Shown: positions 1 through 11,669, counted from the stretch's first letter. The stretch is 15,232 bases of DNA from Anaerohalosphaeraceae bacterium (GCA_050309685.1 JBNRMP010000015.1:1-15232), one strand, 5' to 3'. Numbers and translations: made by a program. Notes: generated from the letters alone by a model not told the origin.

Positions 1-3000
1 CGTATCGTCTGGGAAGATCTGACCGACCATCTCAAGACGTTGTCCAGTGGAACGCAAATTGTCAAAGAGCTCGGCCGGCTGCTCATCGCCGCATAAAAAC
101 TATGAAAAAAGTCAGTCAAGTTGAGAAGCTTACCTGTTTTGTTTTTACTGAAGCTGTTTTCATTGAAGCGGTAGAGGGAAACTTCATATTGTTTGAACAA
201 TTCATTCGGATCTTCTCCGGCAAAAGATACCGTGGCCTGGGCAAAATCGATAGTAAACGTGCCCAGGTCCATATTTTGCCCGTCGGGAAAGTTGAACCTC
301 CCCAGTTCCACCCATCGTTCATGACCCTTCAAACCGGCAATTTCGAAAAAGAGGTATCGTGAGCCGGTCGGGATTCCACGGAAAACAAAACGGCCCGTTT
401 CATCGGTCCTTGCATAGGCCGTAAAGGCGGTTTCCCAGTTGCTCGGACTGCCCTTGATAAGCAGGTTGAGCTTGGGGACCGGTTGATTGTCCCGCAGAAT
501 CTTTCCTGTGACGGATGAAAGGCCGCCGAAATCCAGGCTCACGGCCCGATCCTTTTGCGGCAGAATTGATGTTGTTACCACGCCCAGTTTGTTGTCCGGG
601 TCTTCACGATAGCCGTAGCATAGGATTGGTGGCATCTTTTCAATCCAATAGTAGCCGCGGTGGTCGGTGATCACCTTTGCCAATCGGGCTCGCCCCTGCT
701 TCCAATAACTGTAGTCGCTTTCATCAAGAAAATAAAGCGGAGTATCGGGAAGGGGTAATCCGTTCTCATCATAGACGAATCCTTCAATTATGCCGCCTTT
801 GGAGAGGACGACCTGCACCTGCCTGAGGGCATTTCCCTCTGTGGTGATCTGCCGGGTCAGGAGGGCATAATCGGCGTGCTCAAACACGAGCCAGTGCCCT
901 GAAGAATCCTGCTGAAGATCGTTCAGAGTGAACCGACCCTCGGCGTCTGTAATGGCCGCCGGGCGGGAATCGCCCGGTTCATAGCGGAACCGGACCTTGA
1001 CCTCTGGTACGGGCAGACCCTCCTCATTCACAATCGTTCCCTCAATGATCCCATCGGCTTTTACCGGAGACATGGCAATCAGGGTCGGTTCATCGGCATC
1101 AGGCACCATTTCCGGGCTTGGGGTGTAAAAGTACCCTTCCGCTGTCAGCTCCACCCGGCGGCTTTCAGTTCCATACACTTCACAGGTAAATTCTCCCTGC
1201 GGATCTTCATAGGCGATCTGATTGACGGTGAACTTCTCAATGGGCAGATTCGTTTCCCTGTCGATTACCTTTCCCCTTAACACGGTTTGCTTTCTGGTTG
1301 GAATTTGCAAAACCAAGTTGTCCTGGGGAATCTCAATATTTTGAAATTTCATTTTGATCGGTTCACGATCGATCTCAAACGTATAAAGACCCGGCACCAT
1401 GTTCTTAATTTCAAATTCGGTTTTACCCTTTTCCACGTGAACATCATTACGGTTTCCATCGGCGCTGACAGCCCATATCCAAAATCCCGTAGGCGGGGGG
1501 GATCCCATGTATTGAATCGTTACTTTCTGGGTAACTCGCTGTGAGGGAGAAGCGTAAGGAATTGTGATCGCAATCAACCCTGAATCGGGCGGCAACGGTT
1601 CAAATGTGGACCAGATCCCGCTGAAACCAGTCTCCATAGGAACAAAGATTTCCAGTTTGTACTCGCCGGGCAGAATGTTTTTCAGTTCAAAGTAACCCTC
1701 CTGATCAATCGAAGAATGGGGGACACAATAAACGCTGTGCCACCAGGCAGGTTCAGGAGCGATTTTCCATCCGCCAGCGGGCAGGCCGTCTTCGCAAACC
1801 GCCCGGCCAAAAACAGAGATGCCCGGCTGAAGGATGAAACGAAGCTTCTTTTCCTGAAAATGCCTGTCGAATTTGATTTTCTGAAAGGCGGGCGCATATC
1901 CGTTGCCTGTTACGGTAACCTGATATTCTTCGGGTTTGAGCCCGCCGATGAACGCTTTTCCTTTCTCATTGGTTCGCACATCTCGTTTTGGGCCGCGGCC
2001 CACAATATCGGAAACGTACGCCGCATAGACTGAAAATTCCTTGAGGGGCTGGTTGTACTCGTTGACCACTTCCGCTCGGATCTTGCAGCCCTTTTGGAAT
2101 TGATAATGTCGGAAGGTCTGGGTATCCTTTTTCAACTGAATGGTTTCATTCGTATATCTCCATCTTTCAGGGGTAATATAAACAGGGGATTCAAATTCAA
2201 TTATGTAATCTCCATCCGCCTTAATATTCGCGAACCAGTACATTCCGTTTGGATCTGTTTTAGTATGTTGATAGTCATCATTGGGAGAGCAACTTATAGA
2301 GATCTCCAAATCGGCAATTGGCTCGAGTGTATTGACATCGGTGATGAGGCCGCTCAGGACGCCTCGGGGGGTGAACTGGTAGGGCTCAGGGGCAACGGTG
2401 GGTTGTATAGCGGGCTCCTTGAGCTTTGCGGGCGGCTGGGGTTTTGTTTGTTCTTCCACGGCCGCGATGGTTTTCAACTTTGCTTCGTTGATGATCGGAT
2501 CGACGGGCGCTTCCTGCGCTGGCACGGCAGCCGGCTGGGGCTGGGCGGTTGATTGTGGGCTTGCCGCATCCGTCAGGACCGCCTGCACCGGGGGAAGCGA
2601 CGCCGGTTCGGGGTGACTGAGATAGAACAGCAGGCCGGATGTGCCTAGGATCACGGCCGCAGCCGCGGCGGCAATCTTGAGTCCCACAGCGGTCCCGACC
2701 GATGCCGGCGTGGTCCCTGCCGCTGCCCCGGCAAAACCGGCCGGGCCCGTAGTCGTCGCCTCGGCCACGGCGGCGCTGCCGATGGCGATGGAGCCGACGG
2801 CCAGCATGACGGCTTTTGTGAAGCCGGCGCCCGGTTTGGACTTCTGCAGTCCGCGTTCGACCATGGCCTCGACCTCGGCCCTGAGCATCTGGCGGCCGCG
2901 ATGCAGGCGAACGCGGATCGTGGCCTCCTTTTCATCGAGCAGGTCGGCAACCTGCCGAATGGAGCGGTCCTCGCGATAGAAGAGGACGAGGGGGTCGCGG

Positions 3001-3416
3001 TACATTTCGGGGATCCGCATGAGCGCCTGGCTGATCATCGCTTCTTCCTCCCTGGAGATCAGAATTTCGGACGGCCCCGGCTGAGGGCAGGCAGAACCGG
3101 GGAGATCGTTGAGTCTGTCGGTGCAGGCGAGGGGTTCTCTCTTTTTTCGGCGATGATGATTAAGGATGACGCTGCGGGTGATGCTGCACAGCCACGACTT
3201 GAAGCGGGCGGCGTCCTGGAGCTGCGCCAAGCTGCTCCACGCCCGCACGAAGGCCTCCTGGGCCAGCTCCTCGCTGAGGTCGAGGCGGCCGACGGCGCTG
3301 TAGGTGAGGGAACAGACGAGGGATTTGTAGCGGCCCACCAGCCGCTCGAAGGCGCGGGGGTCGCCCCGGAGGCAGGCGGCGATCAAATCCGCCTCTGTGT
3401 GTCCGTTATCTCTCAT
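1..3416 (-). CDS. Partial CDS (C-terminus lies beyond the window start). It is a single-polypeptide ECF sigma-70 factor fused to a hydrophobic transmembrane segment, a Pro/Gln-rich linker, and at least eight CarboxypepD_reg-like (prealbumin-fold) beta-sandwich repeats.
   Basis: Hand translation of minus-strand frame 2 from the ATG at 3414-3416 to position 1 gives about 1138 codons with no stop. The frame was checked at anchor positions 5, 128, 848, 1508 and 2648. No frame-2 minus-strand ORFs appear in the provided track, which fits an ORF that leaves the window. GGAGG lies 6 nt upstream of the ATG. Residues 1-190 show ECF region 2 (...AFERLVGRYKSLVCSLTYSAV...AQEAFVRAWSSLAQL...FKSWLCSITRSVILNHHRRKKRE) and region 4 (...LVLFYREDRSIRQVADLLDEKEATIRVRLHRGRQMLR). 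About 60 hydrophobic residues follow (AVMLAVGSIAIGSAAV...LKIAAAAAAVILGTSGLLFYL). After that come repeated motifs of the form TDxxGxYxF and GRFxFxxIPxGxY, for example TDPNGMYWFANIKADGDY, TDAEGRFTLNDL and RTDETGRFVFRGIPTGSRY. Confidence 0.8.
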   Translation of the reverse strand, partial: MRDNGHTEADLIAACLRGDPRAFERLVGRYKSLVCSLTYSAVGRLDLSEELAQEAFVRAWSSLAQLQDAARFKSWLCSITRSVILNHHRRKKREPLACTDRLNDLPGSACPQPGPSEILISREEEAMISQALMRIPEMYRDPLVLFYREDRSIRQVADLLDEKEATIRVRLHRGRQMLRAEVEAMVERGLQKSKPGAGFTKAVMLAVGSIAIGSAAVAEATTTGPAGFAGAAAGTTPASVGTAVGLKIAAAAAAVILGTSGLLFYLSHPEPASLPPVQAVLTDAASPQSTAQPQPAAVPAQEAPVDPIINEAKLKTIAAVEEQTKPQPPAKLKEPAIQPTVAPEPYQFTPRGVLSGLITDVNTLEPIADLEISISCSPNDDYQHTKTDPNGMYWFANIKADGDYIIEFESPVYITPERWRYTNETIQLKKDTQTFRHYQFQKGCKIRAEVVNEYNQPLKEFSVYAAYVSDIVGRGPKRDVRTNEKGKAFIGGLKPEEYQVTVTGNGYAPAFQKIKFDRHFQEKKLRFILQPGISVFGRAVCEDGLPAGGWKIAPEPAWWHSVYCVPHSSIDQEGYFELKNILPGEYKLEIFVPMETGFSGIWSTFEPLPPDSGLIAITIPYASPSQRVTQKVTIQYMGSPPPTGFWIWAVSADGNRNDVHVEKGKTEFEIKNMVPGLYTFEIDREPIKMKFQNIEIPQDNLVLQIPTRKQTVLRGKVIDRETNLPIEKFTVNQIAYEDPQGEFTCEVYGTESRRVELTAEGYFYTPSPEMVPDADEPTLIAMSPVKADGIIEGTIVNEEGLPVPEVKVRFRYEPGDSRPAAITDAEGRFTLNDLQQDSSGHWLVFEHADYALLTRQITTEGNALRQVQVVLSKGGIIEGFVYDENGLPLPDTPLYFLDESDYSYWKQGRARLAKVITDHRGYYWIEKMPPILCYGYREDPDNKLGVVTTSILPQKDRAVSLDFGGLSSVTGKILRDNQPVPKLNLLIKGSPSNWETAFTAYARTDETGRFVFRGIPTGSRYLFFEIAGLKGHERWVELGRFNFPDGQNMDLGTFTIDFAQATVSFAGEDPNELFKQYEVSLYRFNENSFSKNKTGKLLNLTDFFHSFYAAMSSRPSSLTICVPLDNVLRWSVRSSQTI

Positions 3417-3423
3417 ATCGGGC

Positions 3424-3439
3424 CTCCTTTCGCATTATA
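3424..3439 (-). promoter_or_regulatory. Shine-Dalgarno GGAGG plus a perfect TATAAT hexamer immediately upstream of the sigma-fusion gene.
   Basis: The minus strand reads ...CCGAAGTATAATGCGAAAGGAGGCCCGATATG. GGAGG is plus 3424-3428 and TATAAT is plus 3434-3439. The -10 box sits only about 18 nt from the ATG, so any leader would be very short. No convincing -35 or ECF-type GGAAC/CGTC pair was found. Confidence 0.3.
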
Positions 3440-3593
3440 CTTCGGAATATGAGAAACCGACAGGGGAGAAAGGTTACAAGGGAGGGAAAAATTTTTGGCG
3501 AAAAGCGGGCTGGAAGGAGCCGTCGGCTTGCGTTGCAAACGCGCTGCCGCACGGTTTGCGATTTAAATAGGCGGCTGTCCCTGTTTTTATACC

Positions 3594-6500
3594 CTACGGT
3601 TTCTTCTTTTTGGCGGCGGGTTTGTCCGGGACGTCGGCGGGAAGGGCCGGCGTTTTGCCGGGCTCGAGCGGCGAGGCGTCGTAGCGCTCCTTGAGGGCGT
3701 TGATGAGCCGCTCGTAGCCGGCGATCATCTCCTCAAAGCGGGCGATGAGCATCCGGCAGTACTCCTTGCGGTCGGCATCGGAGCGGCGGACGGGGGTGAG
3801 CCACATCTCCATGGTCCTGAACTGCTCCTCCATGACGGAGGAGAGCGTGTGGAGGTTCTGCTGCTGAAGGGCGGAGCGGATCTGCTGCTCGGAATCGGTC
3901 TGAAAGCGGATGCTCTCGATCACCTGGTTCATGCGGTCGAGGATTTCGCGGCCGATGGTTTGGACGGGATCGTCGGCTTTCGGGGTTGCCGCCGTTTTGA
4001 GGCCGTCGGCGAGCGCATCCTTGATGGATTCGAGGCCCGCGTTCATGCCGTTGAGCTGGCGGATCAGCTTGCCGATACGGTCCTCGTCGTCGGCGCCGAG
4101 GAGCTTGTTGCGGGCGAAGGTCTTCTTGATGTCGGCCCAGCGCTGCGCCTCGGTCTCGCTCAGGCGGCCGGTGAGCTCGCGGAACTTGAGCAGGCTGGCC
4201 TCCGCGCCGCTCGCGAGGGTCTGGGCGTCCTGTTCGTAGTTGGAGAAGATCAGCGTCCAGAGCTCGCGCTCGTTCATAACCGGCAGGACGCCGGCGGCGA
4301 TGCGGTTCATGTTGCGATACGACCCCTGGAGCAGGAAGGGCGGCTCGGTGCGGTACTCATCGGCCTGGGCGGCGGAGAGGATGTACTGCCGATTGACTTT
4401 CAGCACGACCTCGCGGACGACGAAAAGCTTCTTCATGACGGCGACATATTCTTCGAGCTCGTCGGCCCCGTAGGCGCCCTCGAAATCGATGCCGTCCTTT
4501 TGGCCGGTCTCGGCGAGTTTCATGACGGCATAGACGTCGGCCTGGCTGCGGCGGGCGAGCGATTCGAGGACGGGATTGGAGGTCAGGGCGTTCTCGATGT
4601 AGCTGCTCATGAACGCGTCGTAGTTGTCGCCGACGATGTCGCCGATGTTATAGATGTCGGCGCGGTTGCTGAGCATGTCGGGGATCTTGAACTTTTCGCC
4701 GCTTTCGGTATAGGGGTTGCCGGCCATGACGACGCAGACGCGCTTGCCGCGGAGGTCGTAGGTGCGCGGGCGGCCCTCGTGGATGCCCTCGATTTTGCGC
4801 TGGGCGTCGCACAGCGAGATGAACTTCTGGAGGAACTCGGGGCTCGTGTGCTGGATGTCGTCGATATAGATCATCACGTTGTCGCCCATCTCGAAGGAAA
4901 GGTTGAGCTTTTGGATTTCCTCGCGGGCGGCGGCGTTGGGGGCCTCGGCGGGATCGAGCGAGATGACCCGGCGGCCCAGCGCCGGGCCGTTGATCTTGAC
5001 GAAGGTGAGCCCCAGCCGGTTGGCGACGTACTCCATGAGCGTCGTCTTGCCGTAGCCCGGCGGCGAGATCAGCAGCAGCAGGCCCTGGCGGTCGGTGCGC
5101 TTGGTCTCATCGGCCGTGCCGATCTGTTTGGCGAGGTTGGCGCCGATGAGGGGCAGGTAAACCGTGTCGATGAGCTTATTGCGGACGAAAGTGCTCATGA
5201 CGCGCGGCTGGAACTGGTCGAGGCGGTAGCGCTGGGCGAACTCGTCGATACGCCGCTTCTTGCAGTCGCGGAAGGCGACGAAGCGAGGAACGACGTGCTT
5301 TTCGTGGTGCGTGAGGCGATGGATAAAATTGCAGAGGTTCAGCGTGTACGTGCCCTTCGCGATTGTCGGGTGATCGCTCCGGAGGCCGTCCAGGCGGCGC
5401 TCGACCGACTGTCGGACGATGCGGCGGTCGGCGGCGGGCTCCATGAGGGCGACGGCGGCCTCATGGATGACGCCGGGGTCGGGGTCGAGACCCTCTTTAT
5501 TCTGGTACGAGTGCAGGGCCGCGCAGAGCAGGTCGAAGGCGCCGGCGGGGTCGTCGGCGAGGGCGTCGAGCGAGGTCTGAAGCTGTTTTTCGAAGCCGTT
5601 TTGCGCGAGATGGGCGCGGAAGGAATGGGCCAGGTCGGCGGCGGGGCCGCTGAGAATGAAGGAGTCGCCGAGGGCAAGCTCCTCGAAGAGATATTCGGCG
5701 GCGAACTCGAGTTGGCCGTCAAGCAGGCGGCCGGATTGCCTGGCGAAGACCTCCAGCGGTCCCATGAGCTGGGCCGGGAAGTCCTCGCGGCCGCGGTCGG
5801 CGTCAAAGAGAGTGCGAACAACGCCGGCGCCGCGGATGCGGGCGGCAAGCCGCCCCTTGTCCTGGAGCGGGCAGAACCAGTTCCAGAACAGCCGGGCCGC
5901 CGCGCGAACCTGCGGCGCAAAGCGGAGCAGGTCGATGACGTCGTAGAGATCGCAGAGGGCGTCGAGCAGCCGGACGGCATCGGCGTCGTGGACGCCCTTG
6001 ATGTAGCCCTCCTCGAAACGCGGCCCCATGAAGGTCTGCACGGCGGCGAGCTTGGCTTCGGGGCTCTGCCGCAGCCAGGCGGGACCGCGGACGGCGAACT
6101 GTTCGCGAATGGGTTTGAACATCTGCCAGGCAAGATACTCCGCGCGGCTGACGGCGGGGCTTTCGGAAGGCCGTTCGAGGTTCCACAGGTCGGCAGCGCT
6201 GACGATCTCCTCGTCCTCCAGCGGCTGGAAGAGGCCCGTGCCCGCGAGATGGTAAAACATCCGCCCCTCACGGCAGACGACAGCGCCTTCGAGGGCCTGG
6301 CGGTTGACGGAGAAGCGGTAACTGCCGAGGCGGATGATGCTCTCGCCGTCCTCGTAGAGGGCTTGCCTGTCCTTGAGCTGGCGAACGGCGTCCTGCCGGA
6401 GCGTTTTCAGGCGGCCCTTGACGTCCTCGGCCTTGACCGAGTCGCCCAGGTCGGTCAGTTGGGCAATCGTCTCGCGAATGCGCTCGACCATGCGGTCGGC

Positions 6501-8897
6501 GGAGAAAAAGCCGTTGATCTCATCGACGGTTTTCAGGGCGCGGACGCGGGTCTCGATGCCCTTGAGGATTCGCTCGGCGGCGGTCATCAGGGCGGCGGCC
6601 TTCTGGTTCTGCCGCTCAACGAGGGCGATCTTGCGGGACTCGAAGGCGTTGTAGATCTCCTCGCGCTTGTCGGCAAGGCGGACGATGAACTCGTCGAAAT
6701 CGGCAAAGCGGCCCTCGAGCGTTTCGATCTGGAGTGCGGACTTGGTCAGATACTCCTCGCACTTGGCGGGGCTGTCGCACAGATCGAGGAAGCTGATGAC
6801 GGACTGTTCGAGGAGCTTGAGCTGGGAGGCGAATTCGGCCTGCCCCTCCTCGCGGGCAAGGTCCTTCGTGCGGCCGGTGACGGCGGCCTTGGAGCGGTTG
6901 ACAAGGGCGTAGACCCTCGAGATGTTCTCGACGATGGCGGCGGTCTGCACGGCGTCTTCGATCTTCAGGTTGCTGACGACGTCGGCGAGCAGCTCCAGTT
7001 CGCCGGCGGTCCGGGCGATCTGCTCCAGACGCTCTTTGCACTCGGTAACCTTCTTCAGGTTTTCGACGGCGTCGCCGAGGGCGGCCGCCTTGACCTCGTA
7101 GGGCCGCAGGGCATCGTCGCGCAGGAGAAACTCCACGCACCCGGCGGAGAGCGTGTCGGTGTGTTCGGCGGTTTGCGTTTCGAGGGCGTCGATCTGCTCC
7201 AGGTCAGCGTAGCGCAGGTCACGGAGGGAGATGATGCGGCCGCGAAGGGTCCGCAGCTCCGCCAGGCGGCTGACGTACTGGCTGACCTCGGTGAGCGAGT
7301 GATAGTTGATGGCGGCGATGCTCTTTCGGACCTCGTCCCGAACCTCGGCAATCTGCCGGCGGGTGTTTTCGCGGGTGCGGACGACCTTTTCGTATTCCTC
7401 CATGGCCGCGGCGGCCGCCTTACGGATCTCCTCCAGCTCAGCGGCGAGGTTGTGCGTCTCCTCCTCGCCGATCCAGAAGTAGGAGTCGCGGATGTCCTGG
7501 GCCTTCCGGGAGATATCGAGGTAGAGATTCAGGTAGGAGTCCTCTTTGTCGATGAGCCGGAGCAGTTCGGTGCACTCGGCCATGCAGCGGACGATGCTCT
7601 TGTTGCCGATCTTGTAGAGCGGCGAGTCGCTCCTGGCCTCAACGACATGGTCGGGGTGGCAGAAGGGCGTCTTCCAGACCTGGATGACATGGTGCTTCTG
7701 GGCCTGCCCGTCGGCGCGGAAACAGATGAACGTGCCGTCCGCGAACGAGCAGAAGCCGTTGCAGACCAGCGGAACGGCCATCTCCATCCGGATGATGTTG
7801 TAAAAGAGCAGGACGTAAACGCCCGAATCCCGGTTGTAGAAGATGTAGAAAAAGTCCTCGCCGTTGGGCGAGTCGAGCCGCTTCTCGAAGACCATCTGCT
7901 CCATGTCGGTCTCGAACTGCTTGAGCTGGCCCGACTGGAGGTAGTAGCCCTTGGGAAAGACCAGGCCGTGGCCCTCGGGCAAAAGGACGCAGGCGTCGCG
8001 GATCGAATCGATACGGACGGCCGTCTGCGTTTTTTCATTGTAGAGAATGTAGCGAAACGCCGTCTCCTGGTAGGGTCGGATCTTGAGGAGGATCAGGTTG
8101 GCGATGATCGAGTAGTAGATCTCGGCGTCGCTGAGCGTCTGGTCGGGGTCGTCCACGGGCTCGGCGTAGATGCCTTCGCCGGTCTCGGTGTTGTCCTCGA
8201 TCTTGATGGTCAGGTCGCCGCCGACGGTCTCGACGAAGACGCGGTCTTCGATGGAGATGTGGGGGTGAAGGCCGCTGCGGTGCATGTCCTGCGTGACGCG
8301 GGTCCACTCGAACTGGTGCTGCGGGGGAAAGCAAAACTCGTGGTCGCTGCGGTTGTCGAGGTATTCGAGCTTATTGCCCCGGATGAGCCACTTGAAGGTT
8401 TTGATGTCGTCGATGTTCTTGCCCGTGCGAAAGATCATGAACAGGTGACTGCCGAGCACGGCGAACTTGGCGAAGCGGGTGTGGCGGTAAAACCGGTAGA
8501 GGTTGAAGAAGTCGCCGCGAAACCGCTCATCGTCGATCAGGTCGAGCGGGCAGGGCCGAAAGGCGCCGTCCTCAAACCGGTAAATCGCGAAGACGTCGGC
8601 GGGGGCCGTCTCATTGCGCAGGCCGACGAAGACGTTGTAGCCGAAGATGAAGTGGTTACCGACGGCGATGATGTCGCGGGGAACGCAGTTGTTCTCGGTG
8701 GAGATGCGTTCGCTGGCGAGGAGCCGGTTTTCCACCGCGCCGAAGACCGCCTTGCGGTCGGCGTTGAGCGATTCGAGTTTGCCCCGAAGGGCGTCGGCAT
8801 GGGCGTTGAGCCGCTTGCGGATGACCTCATAGGTCCCGCCCTCAAGCACAACCGGCTCGGCGGAGGCGCCGGGTTTTGACTGATCCTGTCGTTCCAT
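3594..8897 (-). CDS. Giant 1767-aa multidomain protein. It has about 450 aa of N-terminal beta-rich sequence, about 500 aa of coiled coil, a helical region, one AAA+ ATPase module of the MoxR/AAA_5 (dynein-related) type, a C-terminal helical region, and a poly-Lys tail. Its function is unknown.
   Basis: Complete ORF from ATG (8895-8897) to TAG (3594-3596). Walker A LLLLISPPGYGKTTL is at plus 5037-5069, about aa 1277. Walker B VMIYIDDIQH is at plus 4848-4880, about aa 1343. A sensor-1-like RVCVVMAGNPYTESGEKFKIP segment follows. Residues ~480-950 are heptad-like and rich in E, R, K, A and L. The protein ends ...PAAKKKKP. Codon usage is rich in GC at third positions, like the neighbouring genes. 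The antisense 1676-aa frame is low complexity and carries no motifs. Confidence 0.9.
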   Translation of the reverse strand: MERQDQSKPGASAEPVVLEGGTYEVIRKRLNAHADALRGKLESLNADRKAVFGAVENRLLASERISTENNCVPRDIIAVGNHFIFGYNVFVGLRNETAPADVFAIYRFEDGAFRPCPLDLIDDERFRGDFFNLYRFYRHTRFAKFAVLGSHLFMIFRTGKNIDDIKTFKWLIRGNKLEYLDNRSDHEFCFPPQHQFEWTRVTQDMHRSGLHPHISIEDRVFVETVGGDLTIKIEDNTETGEGIYAEPVDDPDQTLSDAEIYYSIIANLILLKIRPYQETAFRYILYNEKTQTAVRIDSIRDACVLLPEGHGLVFPKGYYLQSGQLKQFETDMEQMVFEKRLDSPNGEDFFYIFYNRDSGVYVLLFYNIIRMEMAVPLVCNGFCSFADGTFICFRADGQAQKHHVIQVWKTPFCHPDHVVEARSDSPLYKIGNKSIVRCMAECTELLRLIDKEDSYLNLYLDISRKAQDIRDSYFWIGEEETHNLAAELEEIRKAAAAAMEEYEKVVRTRENTRRQIAEVRDEVRKSIAAINYHSLTEVSQYVSRLAELRTLRGRIISLRDLRYADLEQIDALETQTAEHTDTLSAGCVEFLLRDDALRPYEVKAAALGDAVENLKKVTECKERLEQIARTAGELELLADVVSNLKIEDAVQTAAIVENISRVYALVNRSKAAVTGRTKDLAREEGQAEFASQLKLLEQSVISFLDLCDSPAKCEEYLTKSALQIETLEGRFADFDEFIVRLADKREEIYNAFESRKIALVERQNQKAAALMTAAERILKGIETRVRALKTVDEINGFFSADRMVERIRETIAQLTDLGDSVKAEDVKGRLKTLRQDAVRQLKDRQALYEDGESIIRLGSYRFSVNRQALEGAVVCREGRMFYHLAGTGLFQPLEDEEIVSAADLWNLERPSESPAVSRAEYLAWQMFKPIREQFAVRGPAWLRQSPEAKLAAVQTFMGPRFEEGYIKGVHDADAVRLLDALCDLYDVIDLLRFAPQVRAAARLFWNWFCPLQDKGRLAARIRGAGVVRTLFDADRGREDFPAQLMGPLEVFARQSGRLLDGQLEFAAEYLFEELALGDSFILSGPAADLAHSFRAHLAQNGFEKQLQTSLDALADDPAGAFDLLCAALHSYQNKEGLDPDPGVIHEAAVALMEPAADRRIVRQSVERRLDGLRSDHPTIAKGTYTLNLCNFIHRLTHHEKHVVPRFVAFRDCKKRRIDEFAQRYRLDQFQPRVMSTFVRNKLIDTVYLPLIGANLAKQIGTADETKRTDRQGLLLLISPPGYGKTTLMEYVANRLGLTFVKINGPALGRRVISLDPAEAPNAAAREEIQKLNLSFEMGDNVMIYIDDIQHTSPEFLQKFISLCDAQRKIEGIHEGRPRTYDLRGKRVCVVMAGNPYTESGEKFKIPDMLSNRADIYNIGDIVGDNYDAFMSSYIENALTSNPVLESLARRSQADVYAVMKLAETGQKDGIDFEGAYGADELEEYVAVMKKLFVVREVVLKVNRQYILSAAQADEYRTEPPFLLQGSYRNMNRIAAGVLPVMNERELWTLIFSNYEQDAQTLASGAEASLLKFRELTGRLSETEAQRWADIKKTFARNKLLGADDEDRIGKLIRQLNGMNAGLESIKDALADGLKTAATPKADDPVQTIGREILDRMNQVIESIRFQTDSEQQIRSALQQQNLHTLSSVMEEQFRTMEMWLTPVRRSDADRKEYCRMLIARFEEMIAGYERLINALKERYDASPLEPGKTPALPADVPDKPAAKKKKP

Positions 8898-8960: not shown

Positions 8961-10985
8961 TTATGCCTTCAGCGTTCGGGTGGTCGTATCCTCCAGCGTC
9001 AGGCCCAAACTCTCGGCGGGGTGATCCGCCAGGCCCAGGCCTTTGACCGTCTCAAGGAGGCGACCCAGCAGGTTATGATCCTTCTTGCTCGCCTTGCTCA
9101 TCAGCTTCATGACGAGGGCGGAGATCGTCAGGTTCTTCAAATCCTCGCTGGTCATGCCGAACTGGGAGACGAACTGGCGAATCTTCGCCTTGGTCTCCTC
9201 GTGGCCGCCGTCGAAGAACGTCTGCTTGACATCGGTGAGAATGCGGCTGTTATCGATCATCCGGTCCACGCTCTTGCCGGTGGTGATGGAGTTGACCAGC
9301 CGGTTGAAGAACTCCCCGTCGCCGCCGACGATGTCGATCTTCGCGGACTTGAGCGCCTCGGCGAGAATGAGGGCCTGCTGCTCGGCGATATCCTTCTGGA
9401 TGCCGATCCGGGCCAGCTCGATGTCCTTTTCCTTGTTGAGCTCGAGCTTGAATTCCTCGTGTTCCTTGCCGACGGCGTCGAAGATCTTCATGGCCTCGGC
9501 CTTCTCGCGGATACCCTCGGCCTCGGCATTGAACTTGCGCGACATAACGGTCGCTTCGGCCGTGCCCTGCTTCTCGACGGCCAGGGCCTTGGCCTCCATG
9601 ACCTCCGCTTCGGCCATGCCGGCGACGGCGTGCTCCTTGACCTGGGCGGCGGCAATCGTCTTCTTGGCCTCGGCGTTCTTCTTCGACGCATCCAGGTTGG
9701 CCTGAGCCTCGATCAGCGCCTGCTCGGCGTAGAATTCGGCCGACTTCTTCGACGCCTCGGCGGCCTTGATGTCTTTGACGAGGGCCTGCTCGGCCTGCTC
9801 CTCAGCTCGGATGATCGCGACCTTCTTCTGGCGGTCAGCCCCGGCAAACTCGCGCGTATCCTTGATCCGCTCTTCCTCGGCCACGACGGTCTTTTCGACC
9901 ATGATGCGCTCGCGGATGTTGTTTTGCAGTTCCTTGCGTTTCTCTTCGACGGCCTTGTCCTTCTCGACCTGGGCGATGGTGACGAAACGCTCGCGCTCGG
10001 TGGCCTCAAGCTGACGGTCGCGGGCGACGCGCTCCTGCTCGACGCCGTCGGTCCGCTCCTTGTTGCGGGCGGCGACGATGATCTGACGCTGCTTGTTCTC
10101 CTCGGCGACCTGGATCTCCTCCTCGGCGGCGATGCGGGCCTTCTCGGCCTTCTCGCGTTCGGCCGCCTGGATCTTCTTCGTCTCGGCCTCCTCGCGGGCC
10201 TGGACAGAGGCGACCTCCCGCTTCTGCTTGGCCTCGGCCTCGGCGAGCTGACGGTTGAGTTCGAGGATGGCCTCCTGTGCCTCGACGTTCTGCTGGGTGA
10301 TCGTCTTGTCCTTTTCGCGCTCGCGGGCGTTGGCAAGCTCAAACTGCTCGGCCGTCAGGACGGTGATCTTCTTGATGCCCTCGGCGTCGAGGATGTTGTC
10401 CGGGTTGAGCAGCTTCTTTTCGGTCTGTTCGAGGTAGTCGATGGCGGCGTCCTCGAGGACGTAGCCGTTGAGGTCGGTGCCGATGACCTGGAGAATCTCC
10501 TCCTTGAACTCCACGCGGGAGGTATAGAGCTGGGCGAAATCGAACCGCTTGCCGACGGTCTTGAGGGCCTCGGAGAACTTGGCGTCGAACAGCGTGTACA
10601 GCGCCTGCTCGTCCGACGCCCGCTTGCACCCCAGCGCCTGGGCGACCTTCTTGACGTCCTCCGCCGTATTATTCACCCGCACGAAGAACGCCACCACGAT
10701 GTCCGCCCGCAGGTTGTCCTTGCAGATGAGCCCCTGGGCCCCCCGGCGGTCGATCTCGATCCGCTTGACCGAGATATCCATGTACTCGATGCGGTGGATG
10801 ATCGGCAGGACGATCATGCCCGAGAAGCTGACCCTCGTGCCTCCCATGCCGTTGCGGATCAGCGCCTCGCCCTGCGACACCTTGCGGTAGAAGGACGAGA
10901 TAAACGCCAGGATCAGCAGCGGAAGAACAATAATCAGAATAAACAGAATTCCTGCAATCGCTGCGCCGGGTACTGCTGCTAACAT
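8961..10985 (-). CDS. Flotillin-family SPFH (band-7) protein of the YqiK/FloT type. It has an N-terminal transmembrane helix, an SPFH domain, and a long coiled coil rich in Glu, Ala and Lys.
   Basis: 674 aa. The N-terminus AAVPGAAIAGILFILIIVLPLLILAFISSFY is hydrophobic. The SPFH signature is GEALIRNGMGGTRVSFSGMIVLPIIHRIEYMDISVKRIEI...CKDNLRADIVVAFFVRV...LNPDNILDAEGIKKIT, the same pattern as in E. coli YqiK. About 320 aa of E/A/K/R-rich coiled coil follow (AEAEAKQKREVASVQAREEAETKKIQAAEREKAEKARIAAEEE...). The start ATG (10983-10985) lies 3 nt after the NfeD stop, and a GGAGAC RBS sits inside the NfeD 3' end. Confidence 0.92.
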   Translation of the reverse strand: MLAAVPGAAIAGILFILIIVLPLLILAFISSFYRKVSQGEALIRNGMGGTRVSFSGMIVLPIIHRIEYMDISVKRIEIDRRGAQGLICKDNLRADIVVAFFVRVNNTAEDVKKVAQALGCKRASDEQALYTLFDAKFSEALKTVGKRFDFAQLYTSRVEFKEEILQVIGTDLNGYVLEDAAIDYLEQTEKKLLNPDNILDAEGIKKITVLTAEQFELANAREREKDKTITQQNVEAQEAILELNRQLAEAEAKQKREVASVQAREEAETKKIQAAEREKAEKARIAAEEEIQVAEENKQRQIIVAARNKERTDGVEQERVARDRQLEATERERFVTIAQVEKDKAVEEKRKELQNNIRERIMVEKTVVAEEERIKDTREFAGADRQKKVAIIRAEEQAEQALVKDIKAAEASKKSAEFYAEQALIEAQANLDASKKNAEAKKTIAAAQVKEHAVAGMAEAEVMEAKALAVEKQGTAEATVMSRKFNAEAEGIREKAEAMKIFDAVGKEHEEFKLELNKEKDIELARIGIQKDIAEQQALILAEALKSAKIDIVGGDGEFFNRLVNSITTGKSVDRMIDNSRILTDVKQTFFDGGHEETKAKIRQFVSQFGMTSEDLKNLTISALVMKLMSKASKKDHNLLGRLLETVKGLGLADHPAESLGLTLEDTTTRTLKA

Positions 10986-10988
10986 AAT

Positions 10989-11669
10989 TTAGGTCTCCAT
11001 ATTCAGGGGGGCGATCAGATAGACTCCGCGGGCATCATCCCGGCCGACGATCACGGCTTCATCCCCTTTATGAAAGACGCGGTCGTCGGCGGACATTACG
11101 TTTAACAGGATGGGCGAGCCGTTGGTGGTAATTTCGGCCTGGCCCAGTTTCTTCGATACTTTGGTGGTCGTGACCCGGCAAACCTGCCCGATGAGGGGGC
11201 GGGACGCCTCGATGCTGCCGTCGAGGCCGGTAAACACCCGGGTGATGGGAATGATGACGATTTTGGTGATGCCGCAGGCGATCATAAAGGCGGGCAGGGC
11301 AATCACAAAGGCCAGCGGCAGGGAGTTGTTCGGATTGAAATAATAGTTGCCCAGCACGGCCAGCAGCCAGAGATTCAAAAAGAGAACGCTCAGGACGATC
11401 ATGAACGGAACCCGGCCGAGCGAGAAAAATTCGGCCGCGGCCCGAAACAGCCCCGAAACCCCGGCGCCGTCCGCACCGACATCGATATCCGCGTCCACAT
11501 CCACATCCCCGTCGAGATCGATGCCGACATCGCCGTCCAGGTCCAGGTCAAAGGTATTGAGATCGAGAAGCCCCAGGAGCACGGTGAGCCAGTAGAGCAT
11601 CATCAGAAGCAGCATCAGGGTGAAAAAGAGGTTCACCGGCTCGAAGGCATAGTGGATCAGTTCGACCAT
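10989..11669 (-). CDS. NfeD-like (YqiJ-like) membrane protein. It has N-terminal transmembrane helices, an Asp-rich DxD repeat loop, further transmembrane helices, and a C-terminal OB-fold NfeD domain.
   Basis: 226 aa. The N-terminus is hydrophobic (FFTLMLLLMMLYWLTVLLGLL). An acidic stretch follows: DLNTFDLDLDGDVGIDLDGDVDVDADIDVGADGAG. More transmembrane sequence follows (FMIVLSVLFLNLWLLAVL...AFVIALPAFMIACGITKIVIIPI). The C-terminal beta-rich tail is GQVCRVTTTKVSKKLGQAEITTNGSPILLNVMSADDRVFHKGDEAVIVGRDDARGVYLIAP. AGGAGG lies 8 nt upstream of the ATG. Gene order and stop-start coupling to the flotillin mirror the E. coli yqiJ-yqiK operon. Confidence 0.85.
   Translation of the reverse strand: MVELIHYAFEPVNLFFTLMLLLMMLYWLTVLLGLLDLNTFDLDLDGDVGIDLDGDVDVDADIDVGADGAGVSGLFRAAAEFFSLGRVPFMIVLSVLFLNLWLLAVLGNYYFNPNNSLPLAFVIALPAFMIACGITKIVIIPITRVFTGLDGSIEASRPLIGQVCRVTTTKVSKKLGQAEITTNGSPILLNVMSADDRVFHKGDEAVIVGRDDARGVYLIAPLNMET

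What the first reader, a model, noticed from the sequence alone, without database searches (positions are those of the whole stretch)
1..3416. A single polypeptide fuses an ECF sigma factor, a transmembrane segment and at least eight CarboxypepD_reg-like extracytoplasmic repeats. This looks like a one-component transmembrane sigma/anti-sigma gene.
Seen in sequence: one uninterrupted frame of at least 1138 codons. Residues 1-190 are a complete ECF sigma factor with regions 2 and 4. Without an intervening stop codon the frame continues into a ~60-aa hydrophobic stretch, a Pro/Gln-rich linker, and repeated beta-sandwich units with TDxxGxYxF and GRFxFxxIPxGxY motifs typical of carboxypeptidase-regulatory-like (prealbumin-fold) domains. 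Established knowledge: ECF sigma factors normally pair with a separately encoded membrane anti-sigma factor. ECF groups with C-terminal extensions, including transmembrane helices, have been noted in classification surveys, mainly in Planctomycetes and Verrucomicrobia, but they are poorly characterised. Inference: the large repeat ectodomain probably senses a surface or polysaccharide cue. Release of the sigma domain would then require proteolysis within or near the membrane.
Basis: partly seen in the sequence, partly recalled or inferred. Interest (0 to 1): 0.65.

Follow-up and report, generated by a model that had tools for sequence, protein, structure and literature searches.

The report
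Membrane-tethered ECF sigma factor with sensor rod
One gene really does encode an ECF sigma factor joined through a membrane anchor to a long rod of beta-sandwich domains; it belongs to a large, uncharacterised family with no recognisable anti-sigma domain, and this window's copy is cut by an insertion sequence.

Summary
On the minus strand (ATG at 3416), one frame encodes an ECF sigma factor, a 60-aa uncharged hydrophobic region, a Pro/Gln/Ala linker and eight complete beta-sandwich domains plus part of a ninth.

It is not a lost stop codon. More than 20 homologs at 25-42% identity, and 76 of 76 complete ORFs with this sigma type in reference genomes, are fused to membrane-spanning extensions. 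A 99.7%-identical contig gives the intact protein: 1329 aa with 11 sandwiches.

- Window nt 1-125 are the end of an IS4/IS701-like element inserted at codon 1098.
- No anti-sigma domain is detectable. An invariant "PGxxFTxAVM" element follows sigma-4 directly.
- A strictly spaced ECF-type promoter, TGT(A/C)AC(C/A)-N13-GGTTTCT, precedes the gene in 11 of 12 orthologs. Its -35 box occurs upstream of 65 of 74 distant cousins, which suggests autoregulation.
- The gene is a mosaic. GC3 drops from about 0.8 to about 0.55 at the first sandwich, and the sigma and ectodomain parts have different closest relatives.
- A split two-gene version of the system exists.

Release by regulated proteolysis is the likeliest mechanism, but it is inferred. 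I rate this a new variant of a known kind, of moderate interest.

The parts
3452..3478 (-). Conserved ECF-type promoter: -35 TGTAACC (3472-3478), 13-nt spacer, -10 region GGTTTCT (3452-3458). It ends 35 nt before the ATG.
   Evidence: It is the only match in the window. The strict pattern gives 12 hits in 1.46 Mb of fetched loci against 0.3 in shuffles, and 10 of those lie upstream of orthologous genes on the coding strand. With a relaxed pattern it is present in 11 of 12 orthologs, at 35-49 nt from the ATG in 10 of them and 509 nt in L004. The -35 box TGTCAC occurs upstream of 65 of 74 distant cousins against 2.6 expected. TGTCACA is the experimentally shown ECF41 -35 box.
3423..3430 (-). Shine-Dalgarno sequence AAAGGAGG, 6 nt before the ATG at 3416.
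   Evidence: Read directly from the sequence.
124..3416 (-). Coding sequence for codons 1-1098 of the sigma-TM-ectodomain protein. The intact allele has 1329 codons.
   Evidence: Open frame. 99.7% DNA identity to L001 from window nt 124 onward. 1097 of 1098 residues are identical to P0001.
3138..3341 (-). Sigma region 2 (aa 26-93).
   Evidence: Pfam PF04542, 50.9 bits. AF2 pLDDT above 90. Foldseek TM-score 0.86-0.90 to sigma-E region 2. Invariant Cys35.
2883..3038 (-). Sigma region 4 (aa 127-178; the helix continues to about aa 192).
   Evidence: Pfam PF08281, 34.3 bits. AF2 pLDDT above 90. TM-score 0.76-0.85 to sigma-E and SigR region 4.
2757..2834 (-). Invariant post-sigma-4 element PGxxFTxAVM plus hydrophobic segment 1 (aa 195-220). 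It is too weakly hydrophobic to be a confident TM helix.
   Evidence: F199 is invariant and P195, T200 and V203 are at least 90% conserved. The FT motif is present in 78 of 80 reference-genome relatives. Estimated insertion energy is +3.0 to +9.2 in 37 of 37 family members. AF2 predicts a helix at 197-219 with pLDDT about 70-76.
2619..2681 (-). Predicted transmembrane helix (aa 246-266), preceded by the near-invariant Lys247.
   Evidence: Kyte-Doolittle mean up to 2.0. Estimated insertion energy +0.15 here and -0.9 to +3.5 across the family. It is the better TM candidate in 37 of 37 members.
2367..2618 (-). Pro/Gln/Ala-rich, poorly conserved linker (aa 267-350).
   Evidence: Translation. No Pfam match. 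Not alignable between homologs.
124..2366 (-). Array of transthyretin/CarboxypepD_reg-like beta-sandwiches: 8 complete domains (about aa 354-1055) and the first half of domain 9 (aa 1059-1098).
   Evidence: PF13620 at E = 2.4e-41. Profile repeats at aa 352-434, 445-525, 534-619, 712-781, 789-871, 875-948 and 968-1028. AF2 all-beta model, pLDDT 80. Foldseek matches surface-fibre and pilin beta-sandwich arrays.
2320..2370 (-). Approximate recombination breakpoint. GC3 falls from about 0.7-0.8 to about 0.4 at codons 350-365.
   Evidence: GC3 profile. The closest sigma relative (P0017, 76% identity) has an ectodomain only 22% identical. The closest ectodomain relative (P0002, 42%) has a sigma only 44% identical.
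1..125 (+). End of an IS4/IS701-like insertion sequence: the last 31 codons plus stop of the DDE transposase (nt 1-96) and the 20-nt terminal inverted repeat (nt 106-125). It is inserted in codon 1098 of the sigma gene.
   Evidence: No homology to L001. 100% identity over 125 nt to L089, ending exactly at the IS terminus. In L089 the element is 1387 bp with 20-nt inverted repeats and a 444-aa DDE_5/DDE_Tnp_1 transposase.

Best explanation
The gene encodes a one-polypeptide transmembrane signalling device. A functional ECF sigma factor (aa 1-192) sits in the cytoplasm. It is tethered directly, without an anti-sigma domain, to the inner membrane by an invariant juxtamembrane element (PGxxFTxAVM) and a single TM helix (aa 246-266). 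A disordered linker and a rod of 11 transthyretin-like beta-sandwiches follow on the extracytoplasmic side.

The most likely mode of action, which is inferred, is this. While tethered, the sigma factor is held away from productive transcription. A signal at the ectodomain triggers site-1 cleavage and then intramembrane (site-2, RseP-type) cleavage. That releases the sigma domain, which then transcribes from TGT(A/C)AC(C/A)-N13-GGTTTCT promoters. One of these promoters is its own, so the consumed sensor is replenished by positive feedback.

The sigma/TM module is an ancient, widespread cassette that has been combined with different extracytoplasmic modules. In this genome the sandwich array was acquired recently by recombination. 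In the window's strain the gene is additionally disrupted by an IS element inside sandwich 9.

Shown here: domain anatomy, conservation of the fusion, absence of a detectable anti-sigma domain, the conserved promoter, mosaicism and the IS insertion.

Inferred: topology, proteolytic release, autoregulation and the nature of the signal.
For: - ECF identity.
- Conserved fusion: 26 homologs, all with sigma plus CarboxypepD_reg except P0021. 76 of 76 complete ORFs with this sigma type in GTDB representative genomes are 296-986 aa and carry TM segments. There are 2803 representatives at E <= 1e-30, and nearly all of the best 150 match through the TM region and are long. 37 of 43 mid-length relatives carry CarboxypepD_reg.
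- No anti-sigma domain.
- Invariant FT element and K247.
- Segment 2 is the only plausible TM helix.
- Extracytoplasmic location of the array: the split homolog P0021 has a short N-terminal tail, one TM helix and the same array. It is translationally coupled to a separate ECF sigma gene, which is the classic sigma/anti-sigma layout.
- Promoter: with the ECF41 precedent.
- No conserved partner genes, so the unit is self-contained.
- Precedent for proteolytic release of fused sigma factors: IutY via Prc and RseP, and SCO4117.
- Mosaicism: in line with Pinto et al. 2020.
Against: - Nothing here demonstrates proteolysis, release or signal sensing.
- Topology was not predicted with a dedicated tool. 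The 15 residues after the TM helix carry on average 1.8 Lys/Arg against 0.65 in the preceding loop, so the positive-inside rule does not clearly favour the N-in orientation.
- Segment 1 could be a second membrane-embedded or re-entrant helix. In multi-TM cousins it may well span the membrane.
- Without an anti-sigma domain, it is unclear why a tethered sigma factor would be inactive.
- The hydrophobicity scale values were entered from memory.
- The promoter is predicted only, and no other regulon member was found within the window.
- The window's own copy is IS-disrupted and may be non-functional.
Confidence: 0.6

Rival explanations
1. The sigma factor works while still tethered, like ToxR, CadC or TcpP. 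It is never released. Ligand binding or oligomerisation of the ectodomain switches it on, and RNA polymerase holoenzyme is recruited to promoters at the membrane.
For: There is no anti-sigma domain to keep it off. No protease gene is conserved nearby. The invariant juxtamembrane element could transmit a conformational signal. From general knowledge, membrane-anchored one-component transcription activators exist.
Against: A sigma factor must travel with core polymerase through promoter escape. The known fused sigma factors (IutY, SCO4117) are reported or proposed to be activated by proteolysis. The Gly/Ala/Ser/Thr-rich, helix-destabilising TM region is typical of site-2 protease substrates (general knowledge). 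A rigid 11-domain rod with a disordered linker is a poor conduit for conformational signalling.
Confidence: 0.15
2. The conserved FT helix is a built-in minimal anti-sigma element. The hydrophobic helix after sigma-4 folds back on sigma-4 or sigma-2 and blocks binding to core polymerase, so inhibition is intramolecular, as in ECF41 and ECF42 extensions. The membrane and ectodomain part only controls its removal. This reading is compatible with proteolytic release.
For: F199, T200 and V203 are as conserved as core sigma residues across several phyla. The segment is too short and too weakly hydrophobic to be a TM helix. AF2 gives it moderate confidence, pLDDT about 70-76. The model's sigma-2/sigma-4 arrangement superposes better on anti-sigma-bound sigma factors (rmsd about 13.6) than on polymerase-bound ones (rmsd about 22-23). 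Regulatory C-terminal extensions that contact the sigma core are established for ECF41.
Against: No coordinates or contact map were available, so packing could not be checked. The compact model conformation may simply be AlphaFold's default for ECF sigma factors. The conservation could equally reflect membrane insertion or protease recognition.
Confidence: 0.2
3. The fusion is an artefact or pseudogene: two genes (a sigma factor and a membrane protein) joined by a sequencing error or lost stop codon.
For: A split two-gene version with the same ectodomain exists. The window copy is indeed damaged, but by an IS element at the other end of the gene.
Against: The same continuous frame occurs in an independent 99.7%-identical contig. 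It also occurs in more than 20 homologs at 25-42% identity from NCBI, JGI, ENA and Logan assemblies. 76 of 76 complete reference-genome ORFs with this sigma type are fused. The junction region contains an invariant motif. The sigma factor in the split system is a different one, only 23% identical.
Confidence: 0.01
4. Both hydrophobic segments span the membrane as a hairpin, so the sandwich array is cytoplasmic and the protein is not an extracytoplasmic sensor.
For: The two hydrophobic segments are conserved. Lys/Arg residues are more frequent after segment 2 than in the loop before it. In multi-TM cousins a strongly basic loop follows the second hydrophobic segment (sequences).
Against: Segment 1 never reaches a plausible insertion energy, in 0 of 37 members. 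The homologous array in P0021 follows a single TM helix in a protein with anti-sigma-like gene organisation. Structural relatives of the array are all surface or secreted proteins.
Confidence: 0.05

Closest known systems
IutY of Pseudomonas putida (ECF243), a sigma/anti-sigma hybrid of cell-surface signalling
   Same: It is one polypeptide with an N-terminal ECF sigma factor, a TM segment and a periplasmic domain. It is activated by regulated proteolysis (Prc, then RseP) that frees the sigma domain.
   Different: IutY keeps a FecR-type anti-sigma domain between the sigma factor and the membrane, and it signals via a TonB-dependent receptor. Here no anti-sigma domain is detectable. The ectodomain is an 11-sandwich rod, and there is no receptor gene nearby.
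SCO4117 (ECF52) and the ECF48/ECF53 groups of Actinobacteria
   Same: These are ECF sigma factors with C-terminal extensions containing TM helices, a Pro-rich extracytoplasmic linker and a carbohydrate-binding-type domain. Proteolytic activation has been proposed for them.
   Different: Those extensions contain a zinc-finger (ZAS-like) anti-sigma domain and are up to about 400 residues long. This one lacks a ZAS domain, has an extension of about 1130 residues, and comes from Planctomycetota (Sedimentisphaerales-like).
ECF263 (Casas-Pastor et al. 2021), an ECF group with a C-terminal extension of five or seven TM helices
   Same: The sigma module's closest relatives in reference genomes are about 540-aa proteins with multi-TM extensions and no Pfam domain. 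That fits the one-line description of ECF263.
   Different: Group membership could not be tested, because the ECF Hub HMMs and the paper's supplement are not available. This protein has one likely TM helix plus a large ectodomain rather than 5-7 TM helices.
ECF41 sigma factors (Wecke et al. 2012)
   Same: They have a fused C-terminal regulatory extension instead of an anti-sigma factor, and their bipartite promoter has the same -35 box, TGTCACA.
   Different: The ECF41 extension is a soluble SnoaL-like domain. Its -10 element is CGTC/TGTT at N16, and its targets are neighbouring COE genes. Here the extension is membrane-spanning, the -10 region is GGTTTCT at N13, and the only target seen is the gene itself.
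Planctomycete ECF sigma factors with heterogeneous C-terminal extensions (Pinto et al. 2020)
   Same: The sigma core and the extension have different evolutionary histories, and the extension derives from a pre-existing gene. Here that shows as the GC3 step, the incongruent closest relatives and a stand-alone version of the ectodomain protein.
   Different: That study did not describe this architecture, its invariant juxtamembrane motif or its promoter. No paper in the searchable library combines CarboxypepD_reg with sigma factors.
Split sigma / membrane-protein pair in locus L002 (P0021)
   Same: It has the same 10-11-sandwich ectodomain (28% identity over about 1050 aa) after a single TM helix. 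The adjacent ECF sigma gene overlaps it by 8 nt. Its promoter has the same geometry: cGTAACC-N13-GGTACAC.
   Different: It is encoded as two polypeptides. Its sigma factor is only 23% identical and lacks the FT motif. The membrane protein has its own 60-aa cytoplasmic tail, which matches no recognisable anti-sigma family.

Membership tests
ECF (group 4) sigma-70 family sigma factors | [quoted passage not shown] | tested here: met
   PF04542 and PF08281 score above their gathering cutoffs. TIGR02937 scores 79 bits against a cutoff of 42.9. The best PDB match is SigW at E = 7e-21. Fold matches to ECF sigma factors.
ECF (group 4) sigma-70 family sigma factors | A cognate bipartite promoter (-35 with an AAC/CAC core, short GT-containing -10), usually upstream of the sigma gene itself (autoregulation). 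| tested here: met
   TGT(A/C)AC(C/A)-N13-GGTTTCT is present upstream of 11 of 12 orthologs, with strict spacing. There are 12 hits against 0.3 expected. The -35 box occurs in 65 of 74 cousins. This evidence is in silico only.
ECF (group 4) sigma-70 family sigma factors | Binds core RNA polymerase and initiates transcription. | not testable with these tools
   Requires in vitro transcription or reporter assays.
Fused sigma/anti-sigma hybrids (IutY/ECF243 type; ECF48/52/53 type) | An anti-sigma domain (FecR-N or ZAS zinc finger) lies between sigma-4 and the TM helix. | tested here: not met
   There are only about 10 residues between the end of sigma-4 (about aa 190) and the hydrophobic region (aa 199). 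No anti-sigma Pfam family is found at E <= 1 in the whole protein or in aa 186-352.
Fused sigma/anti-sigma hybrids (IutY/ECF243 type; ECF48/52/53 type) | A TM segment followed by an extracytoplasmic sensory domain in the same polypeptide. | tested here: met
   Hydrophobic region at aa 199-266 and the sandwich array. Topology is inferred, not predicted with a dedicated tool.
Fused sigma/anti-sigma hybrids (IutY/ECF243 type; ECF48/52/53 type) | Activation by site-1 and site-2 proteolysis. | not testable with these tools
   No experimental data. The protease genes lie outside the 15-kb window.
ECF263 (ECF classification 2.0) | Assignment by the group-specific HMM of the ECF Hub. | not testable with these tools
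   The HMMs and the supplement are not available.
ECF263 (ECF classification 2.0) | A C-terminal extension with five or seven TM helices. | tested here: not met
   This protein has one likely TM helix plus one weak hydrophobic segment. Its cousins of about 540 aa do have multi-TM extensions.
ECF57 (Planctomycetes) | WD40-like repeats in the extension, and two conserved Cys residues proposed to link sigma-2 and sigma-4. | tested here: not met
   No WD40 match. The conserved cysteines (C35 invariant, C77 highly conserved) both lie in sigma-2. ECF57 description.
CarboxypepD_reg / transthyretin-like beta-sandwich repeat proteins | Repeated units of about 85-90 aa matching PF13620/PF13715 and folding as seven-stranded sandwiches. 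| tested here: met
   PF13620 scores 140 bits against a cutoff of 32.3. 7-10 profile repeats per homolog. AF2 all-beta model with 76 strands. Foldseek matches beta-sandwich arrays.
IS4/IS701-like insertion sequence (window nt 1-125) | A DDE transposase flanked by terminal inverted repeats, found in different genomic contexts. | tested here: met
   L089 holds a 1387-bp element with 20-nt inverted repeats and a 444-aa DDE_5/DDE_Tnp_1 transposase. The window's identity stops exactly at the repeat's end, and the flanks differ between the window and L089. Only one end lies in the window, so the target-site duplication was not seen.

The most novel reading that the evidence does not exclude
This is the prototype of a widespread class of sigma factors (at least 2800 clusters across several phyla) that dispense with an anti-sigma domain altogether. 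The sigma factor is wired directly into the membrane through an invariant FT juxtamembrane helix. That helix would act as a minimal built-in inhibitor or as the recognition element for an intramembrane protease. The exchangeable ectodomain, here a rod of 11 sandwiches perhaps about 40 nm long, would report envelope geometry or contact with the outer layers of the enlarged planctomycetal periplasm rather than binding a small ligand. Each molecule would be a single-use sensor replenished from its own promoter.
Probability: 0.2. Interest if true: 0.7.

Novelty: new variant of a known kind. Interest (0 to 1): 0.5.

Why it matters
ECF sigma factors are the third major mode of bacterial signal transduction. 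Almost all mechanistic knowledge comes from systems with a separate anti-sigma factor. This gene belongs to a large, uncharacterised, multi-phylum family in which the sigma factor is itself a membrane protein with no recognisable anti-sigma domain.

This work supplies concrete material for experiments:
- an invariant juxtamembrane motif to mutate;
- a precisely defined candidate promoter for reporter assays;
- natural split and fused versions of the same sensor;
- clear evidence that sensor ectodomains are swapped between sigma modules.

Together these make the question [quoted passage not shown] directly testable. They also offer a compact one-protein transmembrane sensor and transcription device for synthetic biology.

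The finding is not a new category, however. Fused and membrane-anchored ECF sigma factors are already known from surveys and from IutY and SCO4117.

Tried and rejected
- ECF group assignment: the supplementary tables of Casas-Pastor 2021 are not held and Jogler 2012 is not held, so ECF263, ECF57 or ECF01-Gob membership could not be tested.
- NCBIfam subfamily models, including the Rhodopirellula/Verrucomicrobium and Planctomycetaceae-specific sigma families, all score far below their cutoffs. No named subfamily applies.
- Anti-sigma domain search found nothing.
- Conserved gene neighbourhood: none beyond local synteny between close relatives. A Na+/H+ exchanger lies downstream in L001 and L003, but on different strands, and is absent elsewhere.
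- A sigma-70-type promoter upstream of the gene: none found.
- Further copies of the ECF promoter in the window (regulon members): none, even with 2 mismatches allowed.
- The positive-inside rule gave an inconclusive result.
- PADLOC screening of the neighbouring giant ATPase operon gave only a marginal AAA-domain hit.
- The 'lost stop codon or two genes' artefact was rejected on conservation.
- I first considered the left window edge to be an assembly chimera at an AAGCTT site. I rejected that in favour of an IS insertion once the IS terminus was found.

Full report
**1. The observation**

The reading frame lies on the minus strand. It starts at ATG 3416, preceded by AAAGGAGG at 3423-3430 and by an in-frame stop 8 codons upstream. 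It stays open for 1138 codons to window nt 1.

- Pfam finds Sigma70_r2 (aa 26-93) and Sigma70_r4_2 (aa 127-178) above their gathering cutoffs, and CarboxypepD_reg at E = 2.4e-41.
- NCBIfam's ECF superfamily model TIGR02937 scores 79 bits against a cutoff of 42.9. No named sigma subfamily reaches its cutoff.
- The nearest solved relatives are SigW, AlgU, sigma-E and SigH, and they match only aa 7-190.
- An AlphaFold model of aa 1-285 gives sigma-2 (aa 8-102) and sigma-4 (aa 115-192) at pLDDT above 90. The domains superpose on sigma-E region 2 and on sigma-E/SigR region 4 at TM-scores of 0.76-0.90.

**2. The membrane region**

Residues 199-266 carry only two charged residues (K201 and K247). They consist of two hydrophobic segments joined by a Gly/Ala/Ser/Thr loop.

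I estimated membrane-insertion energy with the Hessa biological hydrophobicity scale, entering the values from memory.
- Segment 1 (aa 199-220) is a poor TM candidate in every family member: +3.0 to +9.2 kcal/mol, and none of 37 members is at or below 1.5.
- Segment 2 (aa 246-266) is plausible: -0.9 to +3.5, and it is the better candidate in 37 of 37 members.

Segment 1 begins with the motif PGxxFTxAVM. F199 is invariant, and P195, T200, V203 and K247 are at least 90% conserved in two independent alignments. The FT motif is also present in 78 of 80 relatives from reference genomes.

Only about 10 residues separate the end of sigma-4 from this element. No anti-sigma family is detected at E <= 1, either in the whole protein or in aa 186-352 alone. 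The protein is therefore a membrane-tethered sigma factor rather than a sigma/anti-sigma fusion in the IutY or ECF52 sense.

**3. The ectodomain**

A family-specific profile finds seven repeats in the window-encoded part, with gaps large enough for more. I built an AlphaFold model of the full ectodomain (aa 343-1329 of the intact protein) from an alignment of 9 homologs.
- It is all-beta, with 76 strands and a mean pLDDT of 80.
- It parses into 11 sandwiches of about 85-90 residues.
- The window encodes sandwiches 1-8 completely, plus aa 1059-1098 of the ninth.
- The best structural matches are elongated arrays from surface fibres and adhesins: the GhpA grappling-hook neck, the B. anthracis TIE protein, Gram-positive pilins, SdrD B domains and alpha-2-macroglobulin MG domains.

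No enzymatic or recognised ligand-binding domain is present.

**4. Is the fusion real?**

Yes.
- A protein 100% identical over 96% of the query, but 1329 aa long (P0001), exists on an independent Logan contig (L001). That contig is 99.68% identical to the window over 13.3 kb.
- 25 further homologs at 25-42% identity come from NCBI, JGI, ENA and Logan assemblies. Those that carry names are annotated as Planctomycetota, Phycisphaeraceae or Sedimentisphaerales. Their lengths are 1250-1390 aa, and all but one carry both the sigma and CarboxypepD_reg domains.
- A scan of one genome per GTDB species found at least 589 loci with this sigma type. The best 80 came from Sedimentisphaerales, many Verrucomicrobiota, Acidobacteria, Cellvibrio, Alteromonadaceae and Myxococcaceae.
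- All 76 complete ORFs among those 80 loci are 296-986 aa long (median 540) and have TM segments after the sigma domain.
- An exhaustive profile search found 2803 50%-identity cluster representatives at E <= 1e-30. Nearly all of the best 150 match through the TM region and are long.
- Of 43 relatives of 736-1290 aa, 37 carry CarboxypepD_reg arrays. Others carry Big_1, HEAT, MetallophosN or AhpC-TSA modules. More distant cousins have multi-TM extensions with no Pfam family, or M16-peptidase-like domains.

The sigma/FT/TM cassette is therefore obligately fused, and its outer module is exchangeable.

**5. The window's left end is an insertion sequence**

Protein identity to P0001 stops at residue 1098, and DNA identity to L001 stops at window nt 124.
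- Window nt 1-125 are 100% identical to a metagenome contig, L089. There they form the end of a 1387-bp element with 20-nt terminal inverted repeats and a 444-aa DDE_5/DDE_Tnp_1 transposase.
- The match ends exactly at the last base of the inverted repeat.
- The flanking DNA differs between the window and L089.

The window's strain therefore carries an IS4/IS701-like insertion inside sandwich 9. The last 40 codons of the "open frame" are antisense read-through of the IS. The intact allele is the one in L001.

**6. A conserved promoter**

Upstream regions of orthologs share TGT(A/C)AC(C/A)-N13-(G)GTTTCT with an invariant spacer length. In 10 of the 12 orthologous loci examined it ends 35-49 nt before the ATG. 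In L004 it lies 509 nt upstream, and none was found in L006.
- A strict pattern has 12 matches in 1.46 Mb of all fetched loci, against 0.3 in shuffles. Ten of the 12 are these upstream sites, on the coding strand.
- In the window it occurs once, at 3452-3478 (minus strand), even when two mismatches are allowed.
- No sigma-70-type promoter is found in that position.
- Upstream regions of 65 of 74 distant cousins contain TGTCAC, against 2.6 expected. It is followed at the same spacing by GG(G/T)(T/A)·CT·TAT, and it usually begins 39 nt before the ATG I assigned.
- TGTCACA is the experimentally validated -35 box of ECF41 sigma factors, whose promoter is TGTCACA-N16-CGTC/TGTT.

This is the usual signature of an autoregulated ECF sigma factor. 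It also argues that the sigma domain is functional. The evidence remains in silico only.

**7. A natural split version**

P0021 has the same sandwich array (28% identity over about 1050 aa), but its N-terminus is a 60-aa tail followed by one TM helix. Its gene overlaps by 8 nt the end of a separate 207-aa ECF sigma gene, which is the classic sigma/anti-sigma layout.
- That sigma factor is only 23% identical to the window's and lacks the FT motif.
- Its promoter, cGTAACC-N13-GGTACAC, has the same geometry.
- P0021's tail matches no anti-sigma family.

This pair supports two inferences: the array is extracytoplasmic, and it works as the sensor of an ECF pathway.

**8. Mosaic origin**

Neighbouring genes in this genome have GC3 of 0.86-0.88. 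Within the gene, the sigma part has 0.82, the TM and linker part 0.73, and the ectodomain about 0.56. The step, down to about 0.4, falls at codons 350-365. Orthologs in other genomes lack such a pronounced step.

The closest sigma relative (P0017, 76% identity) has an ectodomain only 22% identical. The closest ectodomain relative (P0002, 42% identity) has a sigma only 44% identical. The ectodomain was therefore replaced fairly recently by recombination near the linker. This fits the pattern that Pinto et al. 2020 described for planctomycete ECF extensions.

**9. Mechanism**

No partner gene is conserved next to the gene, so the unit is self-contained.

By analogy with IutY (Prc, then RseP) and SCO4117, the most likely mechanism is regulated proteolysis. 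Supporting features are the small-residue-rich membrane region and the feedback promoter. Under this model an ectodomain signal leads to cleavage outside and then within the membrane, which releases an active sigma factor that re-induces its own gene.

Two alternatives remain open. The sigma factor could act while tethered, as ToxR does. Or the FT helix could be a built-in inhibitor that is removed or displaced. The signal is unknown, and nothing supports polysaccharide binding specifically.

**10. Comparison and verdict**

Fused or membrane-anchored ECF sigma factors are known from IutY, ECF48/52/53, ECF263 and the planctomycete extension clade. The kind is therefore not new.

What I did not find described is the following combination. 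No paper in the searchable library pairs CarboxypepD_reg with sigma factors.
- no anti-sigma domain;
- an invariant FT juxtamembrane element;
- an 11-sandwich rod;
- a defined family-wide promoter;
- demonstrable module swapping;
- a split counterpart.

I rate it a new variant of a known kind and of moderate interest. The particular copy in this window is disrupted by an IS element.

Noticed in passing
window 1-125 (+); locus L089 1080-2466: This is the end of a 1387-bp IS4/IS701-like insertion sequence, with a DDE_5/DDE_Tnp_1 transposase and 20-nt terminal inverted repeats. It is inserted in codon 1098 of the sigma gene. The near-identical contig L001 has the intact gene, so the population is polymorphic for this insertion.
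   Followed up: yes
window about 124-2370 (-) versus the rest of the window: There is a sharp intragenic codon-usage step: GC3 of about 0.8 in the sigma/TM part and in all neighbouring genes, against about 0.4-0.6 in the ectodomain part. The closest relatives of the two halves are also incongruent, which points to recent replacement of the ectodomain by recombination.
   Followed up: yes
window 3594-8897 (-), 8961-10985 (-), 10989-11669 (-): A 1767-aa protein (DUF3686 'ATPase involved in DNA repair' + DUF7902 + an AAA domain) lies directly upstream. It is preceded in the same orientation by tightly spaced ORFs of 674 aa and 226 aa that have no Pfam or PADLOC match. This looks like a three-gene operon of unknown function. 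The only PADLOC hit is a marginal AAA match to mad8 (E = 9e-5).
   Followed up: partly
window 3312-3314 (Cys35) and 3186-3188 (Cys77), minus strand: Cys35 is invariant and Cys77 is highly conserved across the whole sigma family (motifs LVCAITY and WLCSIAR). Both lie in sigma-2. A redox or metal role is conceivable but was not examined.
   Followed up: no
locus L002 5690-6354 and 6347-10099: This is a split version of the system. A separate 207-aa ECF sigma gene overlaps by 8 nt a gene for a protein with a short tail, one TM helix, a HEAT-like repeat and the same sandwich array. Its promoter, cGTAACC-N13-GGTACAC, lies only about 11 nt before the ATG.
   Followed up: partly
loci L007-L084, upstream of the sigma ORFs: In most Verrucomicrobiota and Acidobacteria cousins the TGTCACC box begins exactly 39 nt before the ATG I assigned. 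That leaves only about 12 nt between the -10-like ACTTAT and the start codon, so these mRNAs would be leaderless or nearly so, unless the true start codons lie further downstream.
   Followed up: no
loci L007, L038 and L051, and protein P0027: The multi-TM extensions of the cousins contain long runs of Gly-rich hydrophobic repeats (GGFAVGLLTLGGFAVG...) that match no Pfam family. Some end in M16-peptidase-like domains.
   Followed up: no
window 3434-3439 (-): A perfect TATAAT hexamer lies between the ECF-type -10 region and the Shine-Dalgarno sequence. No matching -35 was found by the sigma-70 scan, so it may be coincidental or part of an extended -10/discriminator region.
   Followed up: partly
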